Shown here in pieces: positions 18,341 to 39,118 of a stretch of 64,000 nt of DNA. Made by a program: the position numbers and the translations under genes. The notes under the pieces are model-generated. The model made no database searches and was not told where the DNA came from. It saw nothing but the letters and a program-made list of their open reading frames with translations. Source of the DNA: Eledone cirrhosa (lineage: Eukaryota); the NCBI GenBank assembly GCA_964016885.1, contig OZ024741.1:95666001-95730000 (forward strand), given 5' to 3'. How positions within the stretch are numbered: position 1 is the stretch's first letter; every line of letters begins with the position of its first letter.

Positions 18341-19286
18341 GATGTATATGTGTGTGTGTATATGTGTGTGTTTGGAAGCGTGTCTGTCTTTGTGCCTCTT
18401 TGTACGGACAGGCATGTGTATGTGCGTGTGCGTGTCTATGTATATGTCTGTACGTATTTGTGTATATCAGTAGATGTACGCGTACGCATGTGTGTGTCCC
18501 TGTATGCGTGTGCGTGTGTGTGTGTGTGCGTGTGCGTGCGTTGGAGAGCTGATGTACGAGGGAAGGTAGGCAGGCGCCTGTGGACACGTATGCTGTTAGT
18601 TTTATGGTCGTGGGCGTGTGGGTGTGTGTATGTGAGAGCGTTTGTGTATATGTATATGGGTGAGTATATGTACATGTGTATGTATGTGCGCGTGTGTGTG
18701 TATGTATATGTATATATGTGTGTGTGTATGTGTGTGTGAGTGACTTGTGAAATACCAAGCCCAGCATGAATTCATTGAAGTGTGTCGAACGGGCATATGG
18801 CATTGAAGTAGCTAATGGGCAGTATGGCAGCAAATATTGGCCAGAATTCATGATGACGTGGAAAAATAACAGCCAACAGAAGGACAAGCGAGGAAGATGT
18901 TTTTTGAAGCTAAAACCCCAGTGAGAATATTTGTTCCGAAGTTATTGGTTCTAGAATCAGACAGATCCATACAATGATCATATATCGAGCTGCCTGCCGG
19001 CGAAACAATTGTAACACACAATAAATTGAGTCCAGATGCATCACTGAGTTTTCGTTTTATATTATATATATATATATATATTATACTTGGGGAGGGTCAT
19101 ATTTGTGTAATATTGCCAGAATTAATAACAGAACACACTCACTGTTTGGTTGGTTTTCGCTTCTCGCTGTCTTTTATATCTGCGATCTAACTTACTCGGT
19201 CCTTAATGTTGCCATTGACTGACCGACGGTCAAAAATGATACAGATACAATATAGACACAAACACATATATATAGTTTACATAATT

Positions 19287-19330
19287 TACATAAATCTTTC
19301 GTTGCACATCTGCAACATCGTCAGTGGTGT
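19287..19330 (-). ncRNA. Hammerhead-like motif in the 3' UTR of the PLE ORF
   Basis: Reverse complement: CCA CTGACGA T GTTGCA GATG TGCAAC GAAA GATT TA TGT; intact core and stem II, weak stem I; about 280 nt downstream of the ORF stop. Confidence 0.55.
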
Positions 19331-19602
19331 TATATTTTTTCCTCCTGTTGTGTTGTATGTCTACGCCATTTTTTATTCAGTCTGTCTATATATTTATTTA
19401 TTTATTTGCTTGTTTGTTTATTTTATTTTGTCTTCTTTGCGCATGCGTTTGCGTGTGTGTATAGTGTGATGTGTGCTGTGTGACTAGTGTGTATAGTGTT
19501 GTGTCTGCTGGGTGACTAGTGTGTGTTTATGTGCTTGTTGTTATTGTGCTTGTGTATGTATTTATTTATCTTATTTTATTTTATTTTATTTTATTTACTT
19601 AT

Positions 19603-21231
19603 TTATACTTCTCTTAGGTCAGTGTTGTTTGTTTGGGTGTTGTTGTTGTTCCACTCATTCTTTCTGTTTAGCTTTGGTCTTCTAATTTCTATTTCACTGG
19701 CCTCTCTGATTTGCCTATCTGCTGGGTCATTCATATGTTTAGATATTATTCTAATTTCTATCTTGTCTATGTTGCCGTCATGTTGTTGTCTAGCATGTTC
19801 GTATAGTACTGACCCGTTTTTTCGTCCTTTTAGTTCCCCCCAGTGTTGGTCTATCCTTTCACCTATGCTACGAGCTGTCTCACCTATGTATGTTGTTGTC
19901 ATGTTTCTGCAAGTACCCTCTGTACATCTTATGCTATAGACTACGTTTCTAGTTTTACAGTTTATCCGGGGATTCACCTTACATATGATACATTTCCTAT
20001 TGGTACAGTGGGTTTTCTTAAAAGGGTAGGTTTTGCTGATCAGGGATTTTATGGTGGTTCCTGGCTTTTCTACCACCTTTATTTTTAAGTGGGTCTTTCT
20101 CAGGGCCTTTCTACACTGGTTAGCTAATTTCCCTCCAGGGGTGGCGTCCACAAACATGACACTCTGATATCTCTGGTTGTCGTACCATGAAGTGGCCTTC
20201 CCTATCTTATGTCTAGCCCTATCTAAGCTATTCCATGATTTGCTCCTGTATAATGGGCAAATTCCTTTCATGTCCAGTTCTATGAGGGTCTTATACTTTT
20301 CCATGGCTCCTTCGTATACTCTGACTCTGTCTCTTTGGTTGTAGCCAGAGAACTGCATGCGGTTGATGAAGTGTTGGATGTGTCTTTCCATTTCTGTTGG
20401 GTCGCACATGCTGGACACATTCTTCATCACTCGTACCAAATCTGCGATCAGAATATTAAACTTAGCACTACTGGACATTGCTGAGTTTTTGAGTATCAGG
20501 TATTTGGAGGCCATGGGTTTAGCATAGTGTGAGTGGAGAATTTGGGCTCTCTCGTCTATAGTGTTAATCCAGAGTTCTGTGTCTAATACAGGTAGTCTAT
20601 TGTTAGGGTGTTTGGAAGGGAAGTCGATAGTTACAGTTATACTCTGGTGTATGGAATTAGCTATCTGCTGGATGCTTTCCATCGTGCTACGTTCTAAATC
20701 AAACTTGTTAGTGCTCTCTAGTGGGGTTGTTCTTATAACTATATTGATATCGTCTACATAACGAGAGTACATGATGAGGTCTATGGAGCTTTCATTAAGG
20801 AGATCTTTAAGTCTCCTTTCCCACCATACCATGAAAAGGTTGGCAACATCACCAGCTATGCTGACGCCGATGGCTGCTCCCTCATTTTGGGTGTAGATTT
20901 TCTCATTGAACTTAAATATGTGGCCCTTTAGGGTAGTTTTGATACTAGCCCCTATTGCATGTGCGACCATTTTTCTTACCTGATCAGTGTTTTGGGGGGT
21001 CTGTATAGCTTTGGTCCACCCAATCCACCTTCCCATGGGAGTCTTTTTTGCCATTGAGGTTATGGTGGGGGGTCTACCTCTTATAGGTCTACTAGGACAG
21101 AAAGATCTAAGGTCATGGCTGTCTAGGTAGTCAGTGTCGTAGGTAAGTCTAAGTAGGAGGCCCAGTTCGTCTGTGTCGACGTCGCAGAACTCCACCTCAC
21201 TCTCAATGATCATCTCCACACATCTTTTCAC
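19603..21231 (-). CDS. Penelope-like retroelement RT + GIY-YIG endonuclease (5'-truncated, frame intact)
   Basis: YTQNEGAAIG, YSRYVDD, LPVLD, HYAKPM thumb region, Cys linker, NVVYSIRC..YIGETARSIGERIDQH, REA..I....PKLN; truncated at (TA)n. Confidence 0.93.
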   Translation of the reverse strand: MKRCVEMIIESEVEFCDVDTDELGLLLRLTYDTDYLDSHDLRSFCPSRPIRGRPPTITSMAKKTPMGRWIGWTKAIQTPQNTDQVRKMVAHAIGASIKTTLKGHIFKFNEKIYTQNEGAAIGVSIAGDVANLFMVWWERRLKDLLNESSIDLIMYSRYVDDINIVIRTTPLESTNKFDLERSTMESIQQIANSIHQSITVTIDFPSKHPNNRLPVLDTELWINTIDERAQILHSHYAKPMASKYLILKNSAMSSSAKFNILIADLVRVMKNVSSMCDPTEMERHIQHFINRMQFSGYNQRDRVRVYEGAMEKYKTLIELDMKGICPLYRSKSWNSLDRARHKIGKATSWYDNQRYQSVMFVDATPGGKLANQCRKALRKTHLKIKVVEKPGTTIKSLISKTYPFKKTHCTNRKCIICKVNPRINCKTRNVVYSIRCTEGTCRNMTTTYIGETARSIGERIDQHWGELKGRKNGSVLYEHARQQHDGNIDKIEIRIISKHMNDPADRQIREASEIEIRRPKLNRKNEWNNNNTQTNNTDLREV

Positions 21232-21245
21232 AGCATATATATATC

Positions 21246-21280
<35 letters not shown>

Positions 21281-21628
21281 TATATATATATGTACACACA
21301 TAACATGTTTGCGATAAGTCAGATCGACTAAAGTAAGTCAGTTTAACCATATAATAACCTCTTATTTTAGTGGGTCTGACCTATACCCGCTCCCCACCAT
21401 TTTGGAATAACTTTAATATGTTAAATTACTTCCCTGAGTTTGATAATCTATCTGTATAATTTAACCATTCATTTGTAGGGTAGGTTTAGACCAGAGGTTT
21501 TCAAACGTTTTGGGCCACCTCCCCACCTCACGGCCACGTAATACCCTCAGCACCCAACCCCTATTTCCAGAGAGACCTGCCTACACACTAATTGTAAATA
21601 ATATATAATAAATAAAAATTGTTAATTT

Positions 21629-21812
21629 GGATTGGTAGTATCGGTAGAGAGTCGGACACCATGCTTTGAAGCATAGAGTTACGTCCCTTTATGATCTGAG
21701 TTCAAATCCCGCCGAGGTTAACTTTGCTTTTCATCCTTACGGGGTCGATAAAATAAAGTACCAGTAATGTACTGGGTAATTGCTGGCCTTGTGCCTAAAA
21801 TAGAAACAGTTA
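21629..21812 (+). mobile_element. SINE
   Basis: Same family as 1163 and 60345 (GAGTTCAAATCCCGCCGAGGTTAACTTTGC). Confidence 0.8.
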
Positions 21813-21871
21813 ATTTATATATGATAAATAATATAATATATACTGTGTATAAATAAATAAATATATATTTT

Positions 21872-23488
21872 TTAAACAATTAAGTTAAAGTGTACATCTA
21901 CATATGTATACGGAAGCACTAGTATGCATATAAATACACACATGTATACATATGTACATGTACGGAGTTTTTCACTAGACACTCCACAGTGAGTGTCAGC
22001 CAGCCCGCATGCAACCACACAGACGGACCGGGCCCCAGAGTCACACGAGCCCCCAAGGAAACACACTTCCTCCATTCTCCAGAGGGCCAGACAGGAATAT
22101 TGGACTAGTTTCGATGTTATTACATCTCATCAGCAATATTTACCCATCTTCCGGCTTCTCTGCAGAATTGTAAAAGCACATATCGTTATGTGCTTTTTCT
22201 ATGAAAATTAATAGTGGGTAGACCAATTTGCATAGAACGTGAGTCATTGTACGCACCGGTTCAGCGGAAACGATAAAAACAAATAACGAAACGAAATTAA
22301 ATTTCGCTTCGCTTCTAACTCACTTTTGTATGACTGACGCTTAAACAATTAAGTTAAAGTGTACAACTACATATGTATACGGAAGCATTAGTATGCATAT
22401 AAATACACACATGTATACATATGTACATGTACGGAGTTTTTCACTAGACACTTTACAGTGAGTGTCAGCTAGTCTGTATGTAACCACACAGACGGACCGG
22501 GTTTTAGAGTCATACGAGTTTTCAAGGAAACACATTTCCTCTATTCCCCAGAGGGCCAGACAGGAATATTGGACTAGTTTCGATGTTATTAACTCTCATC
22601 AGCAATATTTACCCATCTTCCGGCTTCTCTGGAGAATTGTAAAAGCACATATCGTTATATGCTTTTTCTATGAAAATCAGTAGTGGGCAGACCAATTCGC
22701 ATAGAACGTGAGTCATTGCACGCACCGGTTCAGCGGAAACGATAAAAACAAATAACGAAACGAAATTAAATTTCGTTTCGCTTCTAACTCACTTTTGTAT
22801 GACTGACGCTTAAACAATTAAGTTAAAGTGTACATCCACATATGTATACGGAAGTATTAGTATGCATATAAATACACACATGTATACACATGTACATGCA
22901 CGGAGTCTCTCACTAGACACTCCACAGTGAGTGTCAGCCAGCCCGCATGCAACCACACAGACGGACCGCGCCCCAGAGTCACACGAGCCCCCAAGGAAAC
23001 ACACTTCCTCCATTCTCCAGAGGGCCAGACAGGAATATTGGACTAGTTTCGATGTTGTTACATCTCATCAGCAATATTTACCCATCTTCCGGCTTCTCTG
23101 GAGAATTGTAAAAGCACATATCGTTATATGCTTTTTCTATGAAAATTAGTAGTGGGTAGACCAATTTGCATAGAACGTGAGTCATTGTACGCACCGGTTC
23201 AGCGGAAACGATAAAAACAAATAACGAAACGAAATTAAATTTCGCTTCGCTTCTAACTCACTTTTGTATGACTGACGCTTAAACAATTAAGTTAAAGTGT
23301 ACATCTACATATGTATACGGAAGCATTAGTATGCATATAAATACACACATGTATACATATGTACATGTACGGAGTTTTTCACTAGACACTTTACAGTGAG
23401 TGTCAGCTAGTCTGTATGTAACCACACAGACGGACGGGGTTTTAGAGTCATACGAGTTTTCAAGGAAACACATTTCCTCTATTCTCCA
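21872..23488 (-). repeat. 469-bp hammerhead-containing tandem repeat, inverted arm (about 3.4 units, 3 ribozymes)
   Basis: ORF track periodicity of 469; reverse-complement ribozymes with GACTAG at 22103, 22572 and 23041. Confidence 0.95.
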
Positions 23489-26400
23489 AAGCGAAACGAA
23501 ATTTAATTTCGTTTCGTTATTTGTTTTTATCGTTTCCGCTGAACCGGTGCGTGCAATGACTCACGTTCTATGCGAATTGGTCTGCCCACTACTGATTTTC
23601 ATAGAAAAAGCATATAACGATATGTGCTTTTACAATTCTCCAGAGAAGCCGGAAGATGGGTAAATATTGCTGATGAGATGTAATAACATCGAAACTAGTC
23701 CAATATTCCTGTCTGGCCCTCTGGAGAATAGAGGAAATGTGTTTCCTTGAAAACTCGTATGACTCTAAAACCCGGTCCGTCTGTGTGGTTACATACAGAC
23801 TAGCTGACACTCACTGTAAAGTGTCTAGTGAAAAACTCCGTACATGTACATATGTATACATGTGTGTATTTATATGCATACTAATGCTTTCGTATACATA
23901 TGTAGATGTACACTTTAACTTAATTGTTTAAGTGTCAGTCATACAAAAGTGAGTTAGAAGCGAAGCGAAATTTAATTTCGTTTCGTTATTTGTTTTTATC
24001 GTTTCCGCTGAGCCGGTGCGTACAATGACTCACGTTCTATGCAAATTGGTCTACCCACTACTAATTTTCATAGAAAAAGCACATAACGATATGTGCTTTT
24101 ACAATTCTCCAGAGAAGCCGGAAGATGGGTAAATATTGCTGATGAGATGTAATAACATCGAAACTAGTCCAATATTCCTGTCTGGCCCTCTGGGGAATAG
24201 AAGAAATGTGTTTCCTTGAAAACTCGTATGACTCTAAAACCCGGTCCGTCTGTGTGGTTACATACAGACTAGCTGACACTCACTGTAAAGTGTCTAGTGA
24301 AAAACACCGTACATGTACATATGTATACATGTGTGTATTTATATGCATACTAATGCTTCCGTATACATATGTAGATGTACACTTTAACTTAATTGTTTAA
24401 GCGTCAGTCATACAAAAGTGAGTTAGAAGCGAAGCGAAATTTAATTTCGTTTCGTTATTTGTTTTTATCGTTTCCGCTGAACCGGTGCGTACAAGGACTC
24501 ACGTTCTATGCAAATTGGTCTACCCACTAATAATTTTCATAGAAAAAGCATATAACGATATGTGCTTTTACAATTCTCCAGAGAAGCCGGAAGATGGGTA
24601 AATATTGCTGATGAGATGTAATAACATCGAAACTAGTCCAATATTCCTGTTTGGCCCTCTGGAGAATAGAGAAAATGTGTTTCCTTGAAAACTCGTATGA
24701 CTCTAAAACCCGGTCCGTCTGTGTGGTTACATACAGACTAGCTGACACTCACTGTAAAGTGTCTAGTGAAAAACTCCGTACATGTACATATGTATACATG
24801 TGTGTATTTATATGCATACTAATGCTTCCGTATACATATGTAGATGTACACTTTAACTTAATTGTTTAAGCGTCAGTCATACAAAAGTGAGTTAGAAGCG
24901 AAGCGAAATTTAATTTCGTTTCGTTATTTGTTTTTATCGTTTCCGCTGAACCGGTGCGTACAAGGACTCACGTTCTATGCAAATTGGTCTACCCACTAAT
25001 AATTTTCATAGAAAAAGCATATAACGATATGTGCTTTTACAATTCTCCAGAGAAGCCGGAAGATGGGTAAATATTGCTGATGAGATGTAATAACATCGAA
25101 ACTAGTCCAATATTCCTGTCTGGCCCTCTGGAGAATAGAGAAAATGTGTTTCCTTGAAAACTCGTATGACTCTAAAACCCGGTCCGTCTGTGTGGTTACA
25201 TACAGACTAGCTGACACTCACTGTAAAGTGTCTAGTGAAAAACTCCGTACATGTACATATGTATACATGTGTGTATTTATATGCATACTAATGCTTCCGT
25301 ATACATATGTAGATGTACACTTTAACTTAATTGCTTAAGCGTCTGTCATACAAAAGTGAGTTAGAAGCGAAGCGAAATTTAATTTCGTTTCGTTATTTGT
25401 TTTTATCGTTTCCGCTGAACCGGTGCGTACAATGACTCACGTTCTATGCAAATTGGTCTACCCACTACTAATTTTCATAGAAAAAGCATATAACGATATG
25501 TGCTTTTACAATTCTCCAGAGAAGCCGGAAGATGGGTAAATATTGCTGATGAGATGTAATAACATTGAAACTAGTCCAATATTCCTGTCTGGCCCTCTGG
25601 AGAATGGAGGAAGTGTGTTTCCTTGGGGGCTCGTGTGACTCTGGGGCCCGGTCCGTCTGTGTGGTTGCATGCGGGCTGGCTGACACTCACTGTGGAGTGT
25701 CTAGTGAGAGACTCCGTGCATGTACATATGTATACATGTGTGTATTTATATGCATACTAATGCTTCCGTATACAAATGTAGATGTACACTTTAAGTTAAT
25801 TGTTTAAGCGTCAGTCATACAAAAGTGAGTTAGAAGCGAAACGAAATTTAATTTCGTTTCGTTATTTCTTTTTATCGTTTCCGCTGAACCGGTGCGTGCA
25901 ATGACTCACGTTCTATGCGAATTGGTCTGCCCACTACTGATTTTCATAGAAAAAGCATATAACGATATGTGCTTTTACAATTCTCCAGAGAAGCCGGAAG
26001 ATGGGTAAATATTGCTGATGAGATGTAATAACATCGAAACTAGTCCAATATTCCTGTCTGGCCCTCTGGAGAATAGAGAAAATGTGTTTCCTTGAAAACT
26101 CGTATGACTCTAAAACCCGGTCCGTCTGTGTGGTTACATACAGACTAGCTGACACTCACTGTAAAGTGTCTAGTGAAAAACTCCGTACATGTACATATGT
26201 ATACATGTGTGTATTTATATGCATACTAATGCTTCCGTATACATATGTAGATGTACACTTTAACTTAATTGTTTAAGCGTCAGTCATACAAAAGTGAGTT
26301 AGAAGCGAAGCGAAATTTAATTTCGTTTCGTTATTTGTTTTTATCGTTTCCGCTGAGCCGGTGCGTACAATGACTCACGTTCTATGCAAATTGGTCTACC

Positions 26401-29158
26401 CACTACTAATTTTCATAGAAAAAGCACATAACGATATGTGCTTTTACAATTCTCCAGAGAAGCCGGAAGATGGGTAAATATTGCTGATGAGATGTAATAA
26501 CATCGAAACTAGTCCAATATTCCTGTCTGGCCCTCTGGAGAATGGAGGAAGTGTGTTTCCTTGGGGGCTCGTGTGACTCTGGGGCCCGGTCCGTCTGTGT
26601 GGTTGCATGCGGGCTGGCTGACACTCACTGTGGAGTGTCTAGTGAGAGACTCCGTGCATGTACATGTGTATACATGTGTGTATTTATATGCATACTAATA
26701 CTTCCGTATACATATGTGGATGTACACTTTAACTTAATTGTTTAAGCGTCAGTCATACAAAAGTGAGTTAGAAGCGAAACGAAATTTAATTTCGTTTCGT
26801 TATTTGTTTTTATCGTTTCCGCTGAACCGGTGCGTGCAATGACTCACGTTCTATGCGAATTAGTCTGCCCACTACTGATTTTCATAGAAAAAGCATATAA
26901 CGATATGTGCTTTTACAATTCTCCAGAGAAGCCGGAAGATGGGTAAATATTGCTGATGAGATGTAATAACATCGAAACTAGTGCAATATTCCTGTCTGGC
27001 CCTCTGGAGAATAGAGGAAATGTGTTTCCTTGAAAACTCGTATGACTCTAAAACCCAGTCCGTCTGTGTGGTTACATACAGACTAGCTGACACTCACTGT
27101 AAAGTGTCTAGTGAAAAACTCCGTACATGTACATATGTATACATGTGTGTATTTATATGCATACTAATGCTTCCGTATACATATGTAGATGTATACTTTA
27201 ACTTAATTGTTTAAGCGTCAGTCATACAAAAGTGAGTTAGAAGCGAAGCGAAATTTAATTTCGTTTCGTTATTTGTTTTTATCGTTTCCGCTGAACCGGT
27301 GCGTACAAGGACTCACGTTCTATGCAAATTGGTCTACCCACTAATAATTTTCATAGAAAAAGCATATAACGATATGTGCTTTTACAATTCTCCAGAGAAG
27401 CCGGAAGATGGGTAAATATTGCTGATGAGATGTAATAACATCGAAACTAGTCCAATATTCCTGTCTGGCCCTCTGGAGAATAGAGAAAATGTGTTTCCTT
27501 GAAAACTCGTATGACTCTAAAACCCGGTCCGTCTGTGTGGTTACATACAGACTAGCTGACACTCACTGTAAAGTGTCTAGTGAAAAACTCCGTACATGTA
27601 CATATGTATACATGTGTGTATTTATATGCATACTAATGCTTCCGTATACATATGTAGATGTACACTTTAACTTAATTGCTTAAGCGTCAGTCATACAAAA
27701 GTGAGTTAGAAGCGAAGCGAAATTTAATTTCGTTTCGTTATTTGTTTTTATCGTTTCCGCTGAACCGGTGCGTACAATGACTCACGTTCTATGCAAATTG
27801 GTCTACCCACTACTAATTTTCATAGAAAAAGCATATAACGATATGTGCTTTTACAATTCTCCAGAGAAGCCGGAAGATGGGTAAATATTGCTGATGAGAT
27901 GTAATAACATCGAAACTAGTCCAATATTCCTGTCTGGCCCTCTGGAGAATGGAGGAAGTGTGTTTCCTTGGGGGCTCGTGTGACTCTGGGGCCCGGTCCG
28001 TCTGTGTGGTTGCATGCGGGCTGGCTGACACTCACTGTGGAGTGTCTAGTGAGAGACTCCGTGCATGTACATGTGTATACATGTGTGTATTTATATGCAT
28101 ACTAATACTTCCGTATACATATGTGGATGTACACTTTAACTTAATTGTTTAAGCGTCAGTCATACAAAAGTGAGTTAGAAGCGAAACGAAATTTAATTTC
28201 GTTTCGTTATTTGTTTTTATCGTTTCCGCTGAACCGGTGCGTGCAATGACTCACGTTCTATGCGAATTGGTCTGCCCACTACTGATTTTCATAGAAAAAG
28301 CATATAACGATATGTGCTTTTACAATTCTCCAGAGAAGCCGGAAGATGGCTAAATATTGCTGATGAGATGTAATAACATCGAAACTAGTCCAATATTCCT
28401 GTCTGGCCCTCTGGAGAATAGAGGAAATGTGTTTCCTTGAAAACTCGTATGACTCTAAAACCCGGTCCGTCTGTGTGGTTACATACAGACTAGCTGACAC
28501 TCACTGTAAAGTGTCTAGTGAAAAACTCCGTACATGTACATATGTATACATGTGTGTATTTATATGCATACTAATGCTTCCGTATACATATGTAGATGTA
28601 CACTTTAACTTAATTGCTTAAGCGTCAGTCATACAAAAGTGAGTTAGAAGCGAAGCGAAATTTAATTTCGTTTCGTTATTTGTTTTTATCGTTTCCGCTG
28701 AACCGGTGCGTACAATGACTCACGTTCTATGCAAATTGGTCTACCCACTACTAATTTTCATAGAAAAAGCATATAACGATATGTGCTTTTACAATTCTCC
28801 AGAGAAGCCGGAAGATGGGTAAATATTGCTGATGAGATGTAATAACATCGAAACTAGTCCAATATTCCTGTCTGGCCCTCTGGAGAATGGAGGAAGTGTG
28901 TTTCCTTGGGATCTCGTGTGGCTCTGGGGCCCGGTCCGTCTGTGTGGTTGCATGCGGGCTGGCTAACACTCACTGTGGAGTGTCTAGTGAGAGACTCCGT
29001 GCATGTACATGTGTATACATGTGTGTATTTATATGCATACTAATACTTCCGTATACATATGTGGATGTACACTTTAACTTAATTGTTTAAGCGTCAGTCA
29101 TACAAAAGTGAGTTAGAAGCGAAGCGAAATTTAATTTCGTTTCGTTATTTGTTTTTAT
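23489..29158 (+). repeat. 469-bp hammerhead-containing tandem repeat (retrozyme-like), about 12 units
   Basis: CTGATGA cores at 23670 + 469n through 28829 (12 copies); two monomer classes. Confidence 0.95.
23663..23707 (+). ncRNA. Minimal type I hammerhead ribozyme (representative of 15 copies)
   Basis: AATATTG CTGATGA GATGT AATA ACATC GAAA CTAG TC CAATATT: 7-bp stem I, 5-bp stem II closed by G-C, palindromic ACTAGT stem III, GUC cleavage triplet (after 23700). Confidence 0.92.
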
Positions 29159-29221
29159 ATATTTTTTATTTTACCATATTTATATATTATATGTATTATT
29201 TGATACTTAGTATACTATAAT

Positions 29222-29256
<35 letters not shown>

Positions 29257-29270
29257 ATATTATAAATAAT

Positions 29271-29335
29271 TGTTTCTACTTTAGGCACAAGGCCAGCAAT
29301 TACCCAGTGCATTACTGATACTTTATTTTATCGAC
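29271..29335 (-). mobile_element. 5'-truncated SINE with target-site duplication
   Basis: Reverse complement of the SINE 3' end; ATAATAATATTATAAATAAT repeated at 29251 and 29336. Confidence 0.7.
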
Positions 29336-29511
29336 ATAATAATATTATAAATAATAAATTGATAGCATCCCCCCCACCGCTCACCTAGGCCTCTGAGACC
29401 CTAGAACCTGCTCAATGCTCCCCCGGGGCGGTAGCGCCTATTTTGAAGAGTCTGATTTAGACGGATTTTTTGCTGCTCTTTTTTTCTTTTTTAGCATCAT
29501 TGTAAGCCTGT

Positions 29512-38671: not shown

Positions 38672-39118
38672 TTATAAATGTAAGTTATCGCCGTATTTTG
38701 ACTAAAGAAATTAAAGAAATTATTTAGCCTGATAGTGGGGTTAAGAAACCTCGGAGAAATGGAAAACGATGAGTATTGACGTACATGGGAGTCGAACCCA
38801 CATATTTGGTTATCCAGACCACTGTGCTACCATTTACACCAAAACATCACCTGTTTTTTTCCCATTCAAATTAGAAGCTATAAACTTAGCGACTGTAATG
38901 TCAAGTAAGAATATTTTCGAAACAGCGAGCGGGTTTGAAATTATTATGTACGTCAATACTCATCTTTTTCCATTTCTTTGAGGGTTCTTAACCCCACTAT
39001 CAGGCTAAATAATTTCTTTAATTTCTTTAGTCAATAGCTTACATTTATAATAGGCGATAGCTTACATTTATAATAATTTCAAACCCGCTCGCTGTTTCGA
39101 AAATATTTTTACTTGATA
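38672..39118. repeat. Nested inverted-repeat module in (TA)n
   Basis: 38699-38750 is the inverse of 38980-39033; 38901-38948 is the inverse of 39070-39116. Confidence 0.7.

What the first reader, a model, noticed from the sequence alone, without database searches (positions are those of the whole stretch)
23663..28866. Each 469-bp unit carries a minimal type I hammerhead: a retrozyme-like array predicted to yield monomeric or circular RNA
Seen: 12 plus-strand and 3 minus-strand copies of AATATTG-CTGATGA-GATGT AATA ACATC-GAAA-CTAG-TC-CAATATT at exact 469-bp spacing, with no credible protein coding. Established: animal non-LTR retrozymes and PLE terminal repeats are tandem non-coding units with type I hammerheads; minimal forms with a palindromic stem III cleave as dimers and can give circular RNAs. 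Inference: transcripts are cut after GUC into 469-nt monomers and mobilised in trans by a PLE RT. A PLE RT/GIY-YIG ORF lies about 0.6 kb to the left.
Basis: partly seen in the sequence, partly recalled or inferred. Interest (0 to 1): 0.88.

Follow-up and report, generated by a model that had tools for sequence, protein, structure and literature searches.

The report
Retrozyme array preserving RNA-editing scars
This repeat is one young insertion of a common, non-coding jumping element of a known kind (a retrozyme) with a predicted self-cutting RNA motif in each unit, and it mixes two unit versions differing by 27 A-to-G changes that are likely RNA-editing marks copied back into DNA, probably by a Penelope-type enzyme reading round an RNA circle.

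Summary
Observation confirmed: 12 plus and 3 minus type I hammerheads at 469-bp spacing, in two head-to-head arms (21872-29158). It is one insertion of a dispersed family (1,463 exact cores genome-wide). In 69 sampled insertions, 107 of 113 arm 3' ends fall at two internal unit positions and only one at the ribozyme site; flanks are mostly (TA)n. That is the Penelope-like (PLE) signature. The neighbouring PLE is a separate insertion and is not shown to be the partner. Another insertion repeats 17-18 private A>G marks in every unit of both arms, as rolling-circle reverse transcription would. A third differs from its unedited parent by 69 of 69 A>G, but it was a passenger in a long uncut RNA. 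An RNA intermediate is therefore well supported, circles are likely (about 0.6), and cleavage and expression are untested. Known class, new member, new mechanistic evidence. This scan found the same phenomenon before on other DNA of this genome.

The parts
21872..23488 (-). Inverted (minus) arm, 3.4 units; its 3' end at 21872 is unit position 231, the 'short' RT start class. Unit order from the 3' end: edited (chimeric), unedited, edited, unedited
23489..29158 (+). Plus arm, 12.1 units of 469 bp; its 3' end at 29158 is unit position 299, the 'long' RT start class
23489..23491 (.). Head-to-head junction of the two 5'-truncated arms (unit positions 19 and 258), about 3 nt of overlap
23663..23707 (+). 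First plus-strand type I hammerhead (stem I 7 bp, stem II 5 bp, helix III 1 bp plus palindromic tetraloop); predicted cleavage after 23700, repeated every 469 nt to 28859
22572..23040 (-). Full edited (E) unit, all 27 diagnostic A>G sites
21872..22102 (-). Terminal partial unit: E-type at positions 30-119, U-type at 132-231
23489..23700 (+). 5' partial E unit (positions 258-469)
25577..26045 (+). E unit with a U-type tract at positions 152-204
26515..26983 (+). Full E unit; its downstream hammerhead has C17>G
27922..28390 (+). Full E unit
28860..29158 (+). Terminal partial unit, mostly E-type; 29091-29158 is the ~70-nt 'tail' present on only one arm
21485..21871 (.). Older dispersed repeat (82-89% identical copies, DNA-transposon-like end; label recalled) into whose AT-rich middle the array inserted; related sequence continues at 29159-29335. 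Not A>G-biased; 14 of 14 fetched copies hold no retrozyme unit
19081..21234 (-). Separate 5'-truncated Neptune-like PLE (RT, CX4CxxC linker, C-terminal GIY-YIG; 546-aa open frame), bounded by (TA)n on both sides; member of a young family with 1,217-aa frames

Best explanation
The array is one young insertion of a dispersed non-LTR retrozyme family that is likely copied into (TA)-rich DNA by a Penelope-like reverse transcriptase, and its two unit versions likely record ADAR editing of the RNA template, probably a two-unit circle. Steps: (1) Tandem units are transcribed on the hammerhead strand (inferred from strand-specific A>G marks). (2) Neighbouring hammerheads pair through their palindromic helix III and cut; the long stem that joins the unit's two ends favours ligation into circles (predicted). 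(3) ADAR edits some of these RNAs where they are double-stranded (inferred). (4) A PLE endonuclease/RT cuts both strands of an AT-rich target and primes from each end at one of two internal RNA sites, about 225-231 and about 299 (ends shown; mechanism inferred from Frangieh 2024). It reads through intact ribozyme junctions, often for more than one unit (shown), and the two cDNAs join head to head (shown as structure). (5) At this locus the template held one heavily edited unit (27 A>G) and one lightly changed unit (2 A>G), which alternate in the minus arm and at the 3' end of the plus arm; later unequal exchange expanded and scrambled the plus arm (inferred). Odds by step: retrozyme 0.93, PLE-type mobilisation 0.85, ADAR origin of the marks 0.9, circular templates in the family 0.6, dimer circle at this locus 0.4.
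For: Dispersal: 1,463 exact 31-nt cores, reversed control 0. Ends: 107 of 113 arm 3' ends at 224-231 or 296-304; 38 of 46 uncut two-arm insertions have one short and one long end; flanks are mostly (TA)n (46 loci). This matches the PLE inverted arm plus one-sided tail (Craig 2021) and two internal RT starts (Frangieh 2024). The neighbouring PLE family shows the same pattern. Polarity: the A-rich form is the majority of 38 other loci. Cluster size: 27 A>G against a background mean of 0.50 and maximum of 3 in 193 full units; T>C never exceeds 3 per unit piece. Context: 5' neighbour U/A in 23 of 27, 15 of 16 and 49 of 58 sites against 97 of 147 for all A (p 0.024, 0.012, 0.00015); upstream G depletion is the ADAR signature in Porath 2017. 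Parent-daughter pair: one junction occurs at only two places; they differ at 69 of 499 positions, all A>G, including 10 on an antisense-derived piece of the same strand. Circle: the C11 insertion carries 17-18 A>G in all units of both arms, with no other locus of that haplotype among 40 of 602 candidates scored. Variants fixed across an insertion are A>G at 10 of 16 distinct sites, all with 5' U/A, against 34 of 340 for variants that segregate within insertions. 94 of 116 arms exceed one unit. The unit folds at z about -11 with its ends closed by an extended stem I. A sister family (5,372 matches) keeps both RT start classes and has a compensatory stem II pair.
Against: The clearest edited copy (C28) was a passenger: its edits run on for about 2.3 kb of flanking repeat, so long uncut linear RNAs are also reverse-transcribed. 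Frangieh 2024 found unprocessed RNA the dominant PLE substrate in vitro, and Li 2026 saw cleavage in 1 of 9 dimers. The plus arm does not alternate strictly (E at units 0, 5, 7, 10, 12), both terminal units are U-type at their 3' ends, and other arrays show clear post-insertion turnover, so unit order is not a clean record. Edited adenosines are less paired than unedited ones in the monomer fold (0.52 vs 0.72, p 0.011), which points to sense-antisense duplexes rather than the circle's own stems. The hammerhead core is not depleted of substitutions in genomic copies (12/871 vs 432/28,627). Only 1 compensatory pair against 7 broken pairs between the two families. 5' C is more depleted than 5' G in the pooled sites, which is not the textbook order (recalled). 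The autonomous partner was not identified.
Confidence: 0.58

Rival explanations
1. Linear route: the templates are uncut multimeric or fold-back read-through transcripts, edited where sense and antisense pair. PLE RT copies one to four units per arm and DNA-level unequal exchange then amplifies and homogenises them. The ribozyme and circles are dispensable for insertion.
For: The C28 copy shows an edited, uncut, long linear RNA copied into DNA. Edits fall mostly outside the monomer's stems. A single linear U-E-U-x template could give both window arms, whose terminal units are U-type at their 3' ends. Post-insertion turnover is evident. Frangieh 2024.
Against: Separate units of a linear RNA are edited independently, yet C11 repeats the same 17-18 marks in every unit of both inverted arms, and four more insertions carry a private A>G in all covering copies on both arms. 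In the window all U units share two A>G that E lacks. No source locus for E or C11 was found.
Confidence: 0.27
2. Template switching: RT copies separate edited monomer RNAs (linear or circular) in series, jumping between molecules from one source locus.
For: Two haplotypes share a private base (139C, found in 1 of 69 insertions). Most E/U switches lie in the 135-nt interval that holds the cleavage site. Non-strict alternation needs no later scrambling.
Against: Only two patterns recur across 17 pieces; a pool of independently edited molecules should give many. Arm 5' ends do not pile up at the cleavage site (1 of 113).
Confidence: 0.09
3. DNA-level origin of the two versions: cytidine deamination (G>A) from a G-rich ancestor, or ordinary satellite divergence, with no RNA editing.
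For: G>A clusters after reverse transcription are known for APOBEC enzymes (Zaranek 2010).
Against: The A-rich form is the family majority and the G-rich patterns are private to single loci. The parent-daughter pair has 69 of 69 A>G on one strand across sense and antisense pieces. The window's flanks show no such bias (3 A>G of 16 differences on the left).
Confidence: 0.03
4. The array is the terminal repeat of the adjacent PLE, or cargo of the DNA-transposon-like repeat around it.
For: A PLE ORF ends about 640 bp away; the array sits inside an older repeat.
Against: The PLE has its own (TA)n boundaries and its own terminal repeat, with no significant match to the unit's end region. 14 of 14 fetched copies of the surrounding repeat lack the unit.
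Confidence: 0.02

Closest known systems
Metazoan non-LTR retrozymes (Cervera and de la Pena 2020, PMC7229834: passages, axolotl section and Discussion read; Li, Clavereau and Pollet 2026, bioRxiv 10.64898/2026.07.22.740005: parts 1-3 of 5 read)
   Same: Tandem non-coding units, low GC (37%), one type I hammerhead per unit with a one-pair helix III and palindromic tetraloop as in axolotl HHR_Amex1, dispersed, co-occurring with PLEs; circular templates and PLE RT are proposed there.
   Different: In the parts read, neither paper describes two-armed insertions with fixed internal RT starts, (TA)n targeting or genomic editing marks; editing is mentioned only as one possible source of RNA heterogeneity. 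The unit (469 bp) is slightly above the 150-450 bp range given in 2020 but within the 51-972 bp range of 2026.
EN+ Penelope-like elements (Craig et al. 2021, PMC8557442, passages read; Frangieh et al. 2024, PMC11167929, parts 1-2 of 4 read; Cervera and de la Pena 2014, PMC4209133, abstract and Results read)
   Same: Inverted 5'-truncated arm, a tail on one end only, two internal RT start sites, AT-rich or (TA)n targets, ends not at the ribozyme site.
   Different: No ORF; the tail is about 70 nt rather than 30-40; each arm is a multimer of a small non-coding unit.
ADAR hyper-editing of repeat dsRNA (Porath et al. 2017, PMC5625713, passages read)
   Same: Dense same-strand A>G clusters with upstream G depletion; octopus has an exceptionally high rate; lizard Penelope RNA is heavily edited.
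   Different: There the edits are in RNA reads; here they are fixed in chromosomal DNA and repeated unit after unit.
APOBEC DNA editing of retroelements (Zaranek et al. 2010, PMC2873906, passages read)
   Same: Clusters of one mismatch type fixed in genomic retroelement copies.
   Different: G>A on cDNA there; A>G on the RNA strand here, polarised by the family majority and a parent locus.

Membership tests
Metazoan non-LTR retrozyme | Tandem units of a few hundred bp, each with a type I hammerhead | tested here: met
   11 of 15 motifs exact, 1 with a G at the cleavage site
Metazoan non-LTR retrozyme | Non-coding, low GC (<50%) | tested here: met
   GC 37.3%; longest frame 93 aa; frames not scanned against families
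Metazoan non-LTR retrozyme | Dispersed, mobile family | tested here: met
   1,463 exact cores; 69 insertions examined, units mostly 97-99% identical
Metazoan non-LTR retrozyme | No LTR, PBS or PPT; target duplication longer than 4 bp when present | tested here: inconclusive
   Ends abut (TA)n, so duplications cannot be delimited; PBS and PPT were not searched for
Metazoan non-LTR retrozyme | Self-cleavage (monomer or dimer) | not testable with these tools
   Predicted dimer-dependent: helix III does not form in the monomer fold; the 6-nt palindrome duplex is -4.8 kcal/mol
Metazoan non-LTR retrozyme | Expressed as linear and circular monomer RNAs | not testable with these tools
   Only indirect genomic evidence from editing marks
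PLE-mobilised non-autonomous element | Inverted 5'-truncated arm with a tail on one end; two internal RT starts | tested here: met
   38 of 46 uncut two-arm insertions; 107 of 113 3' ends in two classes
PLE-mobilised non-autonomous element | Same target as a resident active PLE | tested here: met
   (TA)n for both; PLE family 98-99% identical with 1,217-aa frames
PLE-mobilised non-autonomous element | Homology to the terminal repeat of an autonomous PLE | tested here: inconclusive
   Not met for the one family tested; other PLE families among 44,217 candidates untested
min-HHR (Cervera and de la Pena 2014) | No helix III/loop 3; helix I 4-5 bp, helix II 7-8 bp | tested here: not met
   Has a palindromic tetraloop, helix I 7 bp, helix II 5 bp: canonical metazoan type I
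ADAR A-to-I hyper-editing | Clustered A>G on one RNA strand, polarised | tested here: met
ADAR A-to-I hyper-editing | 5' neighbour preference (G depleted, U/A favoured) | tested here: met
   pooled 5' G depletion p 0.02; sites are partly shared between events
ADAR A-to-I hyper-editing | Double-stranded substrate | tested here: inconclusive
   Inverted arms and self-complementary (TA)n flanks could supply duplexes, but edits do not follow the monomer's stems
Neptune clade (neighbouring PLE) | C-terminal GIY-YIG with an upstream CX2-5CxxC linker; microsatellite target | tested here: met
   Sequence against the criteria; no tree was built, so Nematis is not excluded

The most novel reading that the evidence does not exclude
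ADAR edits act as single-molecule barcodes that show retrozymes inserting by rolling-circle reverse transcription: a PLE RT primes from both cut target strands at two internal sites of one circular RNA and runs round it several times. This locus is the fossil of a 938-nt heterodimeric circle with one hyper-edited and one nearly unedited unit. It also shows transient RNA edits entering the germ-line genome.
Probability: 0.4. Interest if true: 0.82.

Novelty: new member of a known kind. Interest (0 to 1): 0.64.

Why it matters
That retrozymes spread through circular RNAs copied by PLE reverse transcriptases is proposed in the papers read here but not shown there. Editing marks give each template molecule an identity that survives in DNA, so circle versus linear multimer becomes a countable question across more than a thousand units in one assembly. 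The two fixed RT start sites define a small RNA template for in vitro PLE assays. The copies also show that ADAR edits made in the germ line can become inherited sequence in a lineage that is probably an octopod (the best named relative of the neighbouring PLE is from Octopus vulgaris, 66%). Six library searches listed no paper that, by title or abstract start, reports ADAR marks in genomic retrozyme or PLE copies; the library lacks most subscription journals and no supplements were read.

Tried and rejected
Sequencing runs: no RNA holder listed; seven contig sets were listed, none was laid, so expression, cleavage sites and RNA-level editing stay open. An apparent pile-up of arm 5' ends at the cleavage site (6 of 113) was an artefact of the alignment break; exact extension left 1 of 113. 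I first read the C28 copy as one turn round a circle, then as a fold-back of the element's own arms; two searches showed it is a passenger in a long edited RNA, so it is not used as evidence for circles. The adjacent PLE as partner or source: no significant match, and my hammerhead scan found no complete motif near its 1,217-aa frames. A search for related hammerheads with the same helix III found a sister retrozyme family, not a PLE, in the loci inspected. Editing within the monomer's own stems: not supported. Purifying selection on the core in genomic copies: not seen. Cargo of a DNA transposon: rejected; the element's right end was not confirmed. Source loci for the E and C11 haplotypes: none among 40 of 917 and 40 of 602 candidates scored; an exact pattern gave 5 window matches and the C28 copy. 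Two papers sought by id were not held. A sequence look-up of earlier notes gave nothing. The 69 insertions came from the top hits, three of which used edited queries, so 3 of 69 is not a frequency.
Full report
Observation. The core pattern occurs 16 times in the window against 0.76 expected; 15 lie in one array. The array has a minus arm (21872-23488, 3.4 units) and a plus arm (23489-29158, 12.1 units) joined head to head, with all 11 plus spacings equal to 469. Rfam gives a sub-threshold match to Hammerhead_HH9 (32.5 bits). Helix III is one base pair with a palindromic tetraloop, the newt/axolotl form that cleaves well only as a dimer; it is not a min-HHR. Unit positions below count from the predicted cleavage site.

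A dispersed family with PLE-type ends. The 31-nt core has 1,463 exact matches in the 3.0-Gb assembly. I examined 69 insertions (427 unit pieces) taken from the top hits. Of 113 arm 3' ends in the 67 insertions not cut by a locus edge, 51 fall at positions 224-231, 56 at 296-304 and 6 elsewhere, one of them at the cleavage site. Of 46 two-arm insertions, 38 have one short and one long end. In the 46 loci whose flanks were printed, most abut (TA)n. The window conforms (231 and 299). Craig 2021 describes inverted 5'-truncated copies and a tail on one end as PLE hallmarks; Frangieh 2024 shows that the tail is the stretch between two internal RT start sites. A sister family, 88% identical with 5,372 pattern matches, has the same two end classes and a compensatory pair in stem II, though only 1 compensatory against 7 broken pairs overall. 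Arm 5' ends are spread over the unit (1 of 113 at the cleavage site), and 94 of 116 arms exceed one unit, 49 exceed two. RT therefore reads through intact ribozyme junctions.

The neighbouring PLE. [quoted passage not shown] It belongs to a young family with 1,217-aa frames that inserts into (TA)n and ends at +26 (22 of 45), +69/71 (11) or +84 (10) from its ATG. The window copy is 5'-truncated, has its own boundaries and is separated from the array by an older repeat. Its end region does not align significantly with the unit's (75 of 500 shuffles). It shows that suitable machinery is active, not that it is the partner. Its best named relative is from Octopus vulgaris, so the host is probably an octopod (inference).

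Two haplotypes and RNA editing. All window units that cover position 139 share a base found in no other of the 69 insertions. Seven of 17 pieces carry most or all of 27 A>G changes at positions 30-363 (type E); ten carry two other A>G changes (type U). The direction is fixed by the majority of 38 other loci. In 193 background units A>G averages 0.50, maximum 3. The changes are on the hammerhead strand in both arms, and the flanks show no such bias. Two other insertions have clusters: C11:6433531 (17-18 sites) and C28:60890501 (58-59 sites); a fourth, older candidate appeared (L247). The 5' neighbour is U or A in 23 of 27, 15 of 16 and 49 of 58 sites against 97 of 147, in line with the upstream G depletion of ADAR. 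The C28 copy includes an antisense-derived piece with 10 A>G and no other mismatch in 33 nt. Its junction occurs at one other place, which differs by 69 of 499 positions, all A>G. This is strong evidence of ADAR editing followed by reverse transcription. The edits there extend about 2.3 kb into flanking repeats, so that copy was a passenger in a long uncut RNA and says nothing for circles.

Circle or linear template. At C11 the same marks occur in every unit of both arms, and no other locus with that haplotype was found. Across the other 66 insertions, variants fixed in all covering units are A>G at 10 of 16 distinct sites (16 of 25 before collapsing recurrent ones), all ten with 5' U/A, while variants segregating within insertions are A>G in 34 of 340. 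Marks made on one RNA molecule and present in all units are most simply explained by copying one circular unit repeatedly from both target ends. The unit folds far more stably than doublet shuffles (z about -11, 40 shuffles) and an extended stem I brings its ends together. In the window, E and U alternate through the minus arm and at the 3' end of the plus arm, as a dimer circle predicts; circular dimers were minor ligation products in Cervera 2020. Against this: the plus arm is not strictly alternating, both terminal units are U-type at their 3' ends, other arrays show post-insertion turnover, edited adenosines are less paired in the monomer fold, uncut RNA is the main PLE substrate in vitro, and only 1 of 9 frog dimers cleaved. 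I put circles in the family at 0.6 and a dimer circle here at 0.4.

Known and new. The class is known, and PLE dependence is argued by Li 2026 and Cervera 2020. The two-arm end rule and genomic editing marks were not in the parts of those papers that I read, nor in the listings of six searches; supplements were not read. Earlier notes of this scan report the same phenomena at other loci of this genome; they are unchecked notes, not independent support. My editing reading was recorded before I opened them. What this window adds is an array that mixes two differently edited units in both arms.

Verdict. Real feature; new member of a known kind, with unusual mechanistic evidence; interest 0.64.

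Noticed in passing
G000:C28:60889500-60894000 (L204) and G000:C1462 (L246): A hyper-edited long RNA, with the retrozyme as a passenger, was copied into a new locus, apparently with a second inverted arm; the unedited parent is on a small contig.
   Followed up: partly
G000-wide; L216-L262: Sister retrozyme family, 465-468 bp units, 88% identical, 5,372 pattern matches, same two end classes.
   Followed up: partly
L247:5134-6507 (G000:C1:62.077 Mb): Insertion with about 17 A>G among about 30 differences shared by its units, roughly 650 bp from the end of a copy of the neighbouring PLE family; possibly an older edited template.
   Followed up: partly
unit positions 339-346 (e.g. window 24039-24046): An octamer-like motif, kept in the sister family and changed by one of the E edits; a lead for an internal promoter (motif recalled, post hoc).
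   Followed up: partly
L264 (G000:C1:95.62 Mb): A long array of an older subfamily with what looks like a 7-unit higher-order duplication, showing post-insertion turnover.
   Followed up: no
window 30384 (-), 49316 (-), 16763 (+), 17011 (-): Further hammerhead-like motifs of other families; 30384 looks like a PLE-type motif.
   Followed up: no
window 21485-21871 and 29159-29457: Older repeat with a DNA-transposon-like left end, inverted inner segments and a possible 8-bp duplication (7 of 8 match, read); right end not confirmed.
   Followed up: partly
window 38777-38848 (-): Rfam tRNA match, 45.2 bits, above the gathering score; may be a tRNA-derived repeat head.
   Followed up: no
window 39598-40483; 52603-53948; 54760-56982: A 444-bp tandem duplication (99%), a long (TTG)n tract and a 33-bp minisatellite.
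   Followed up: no
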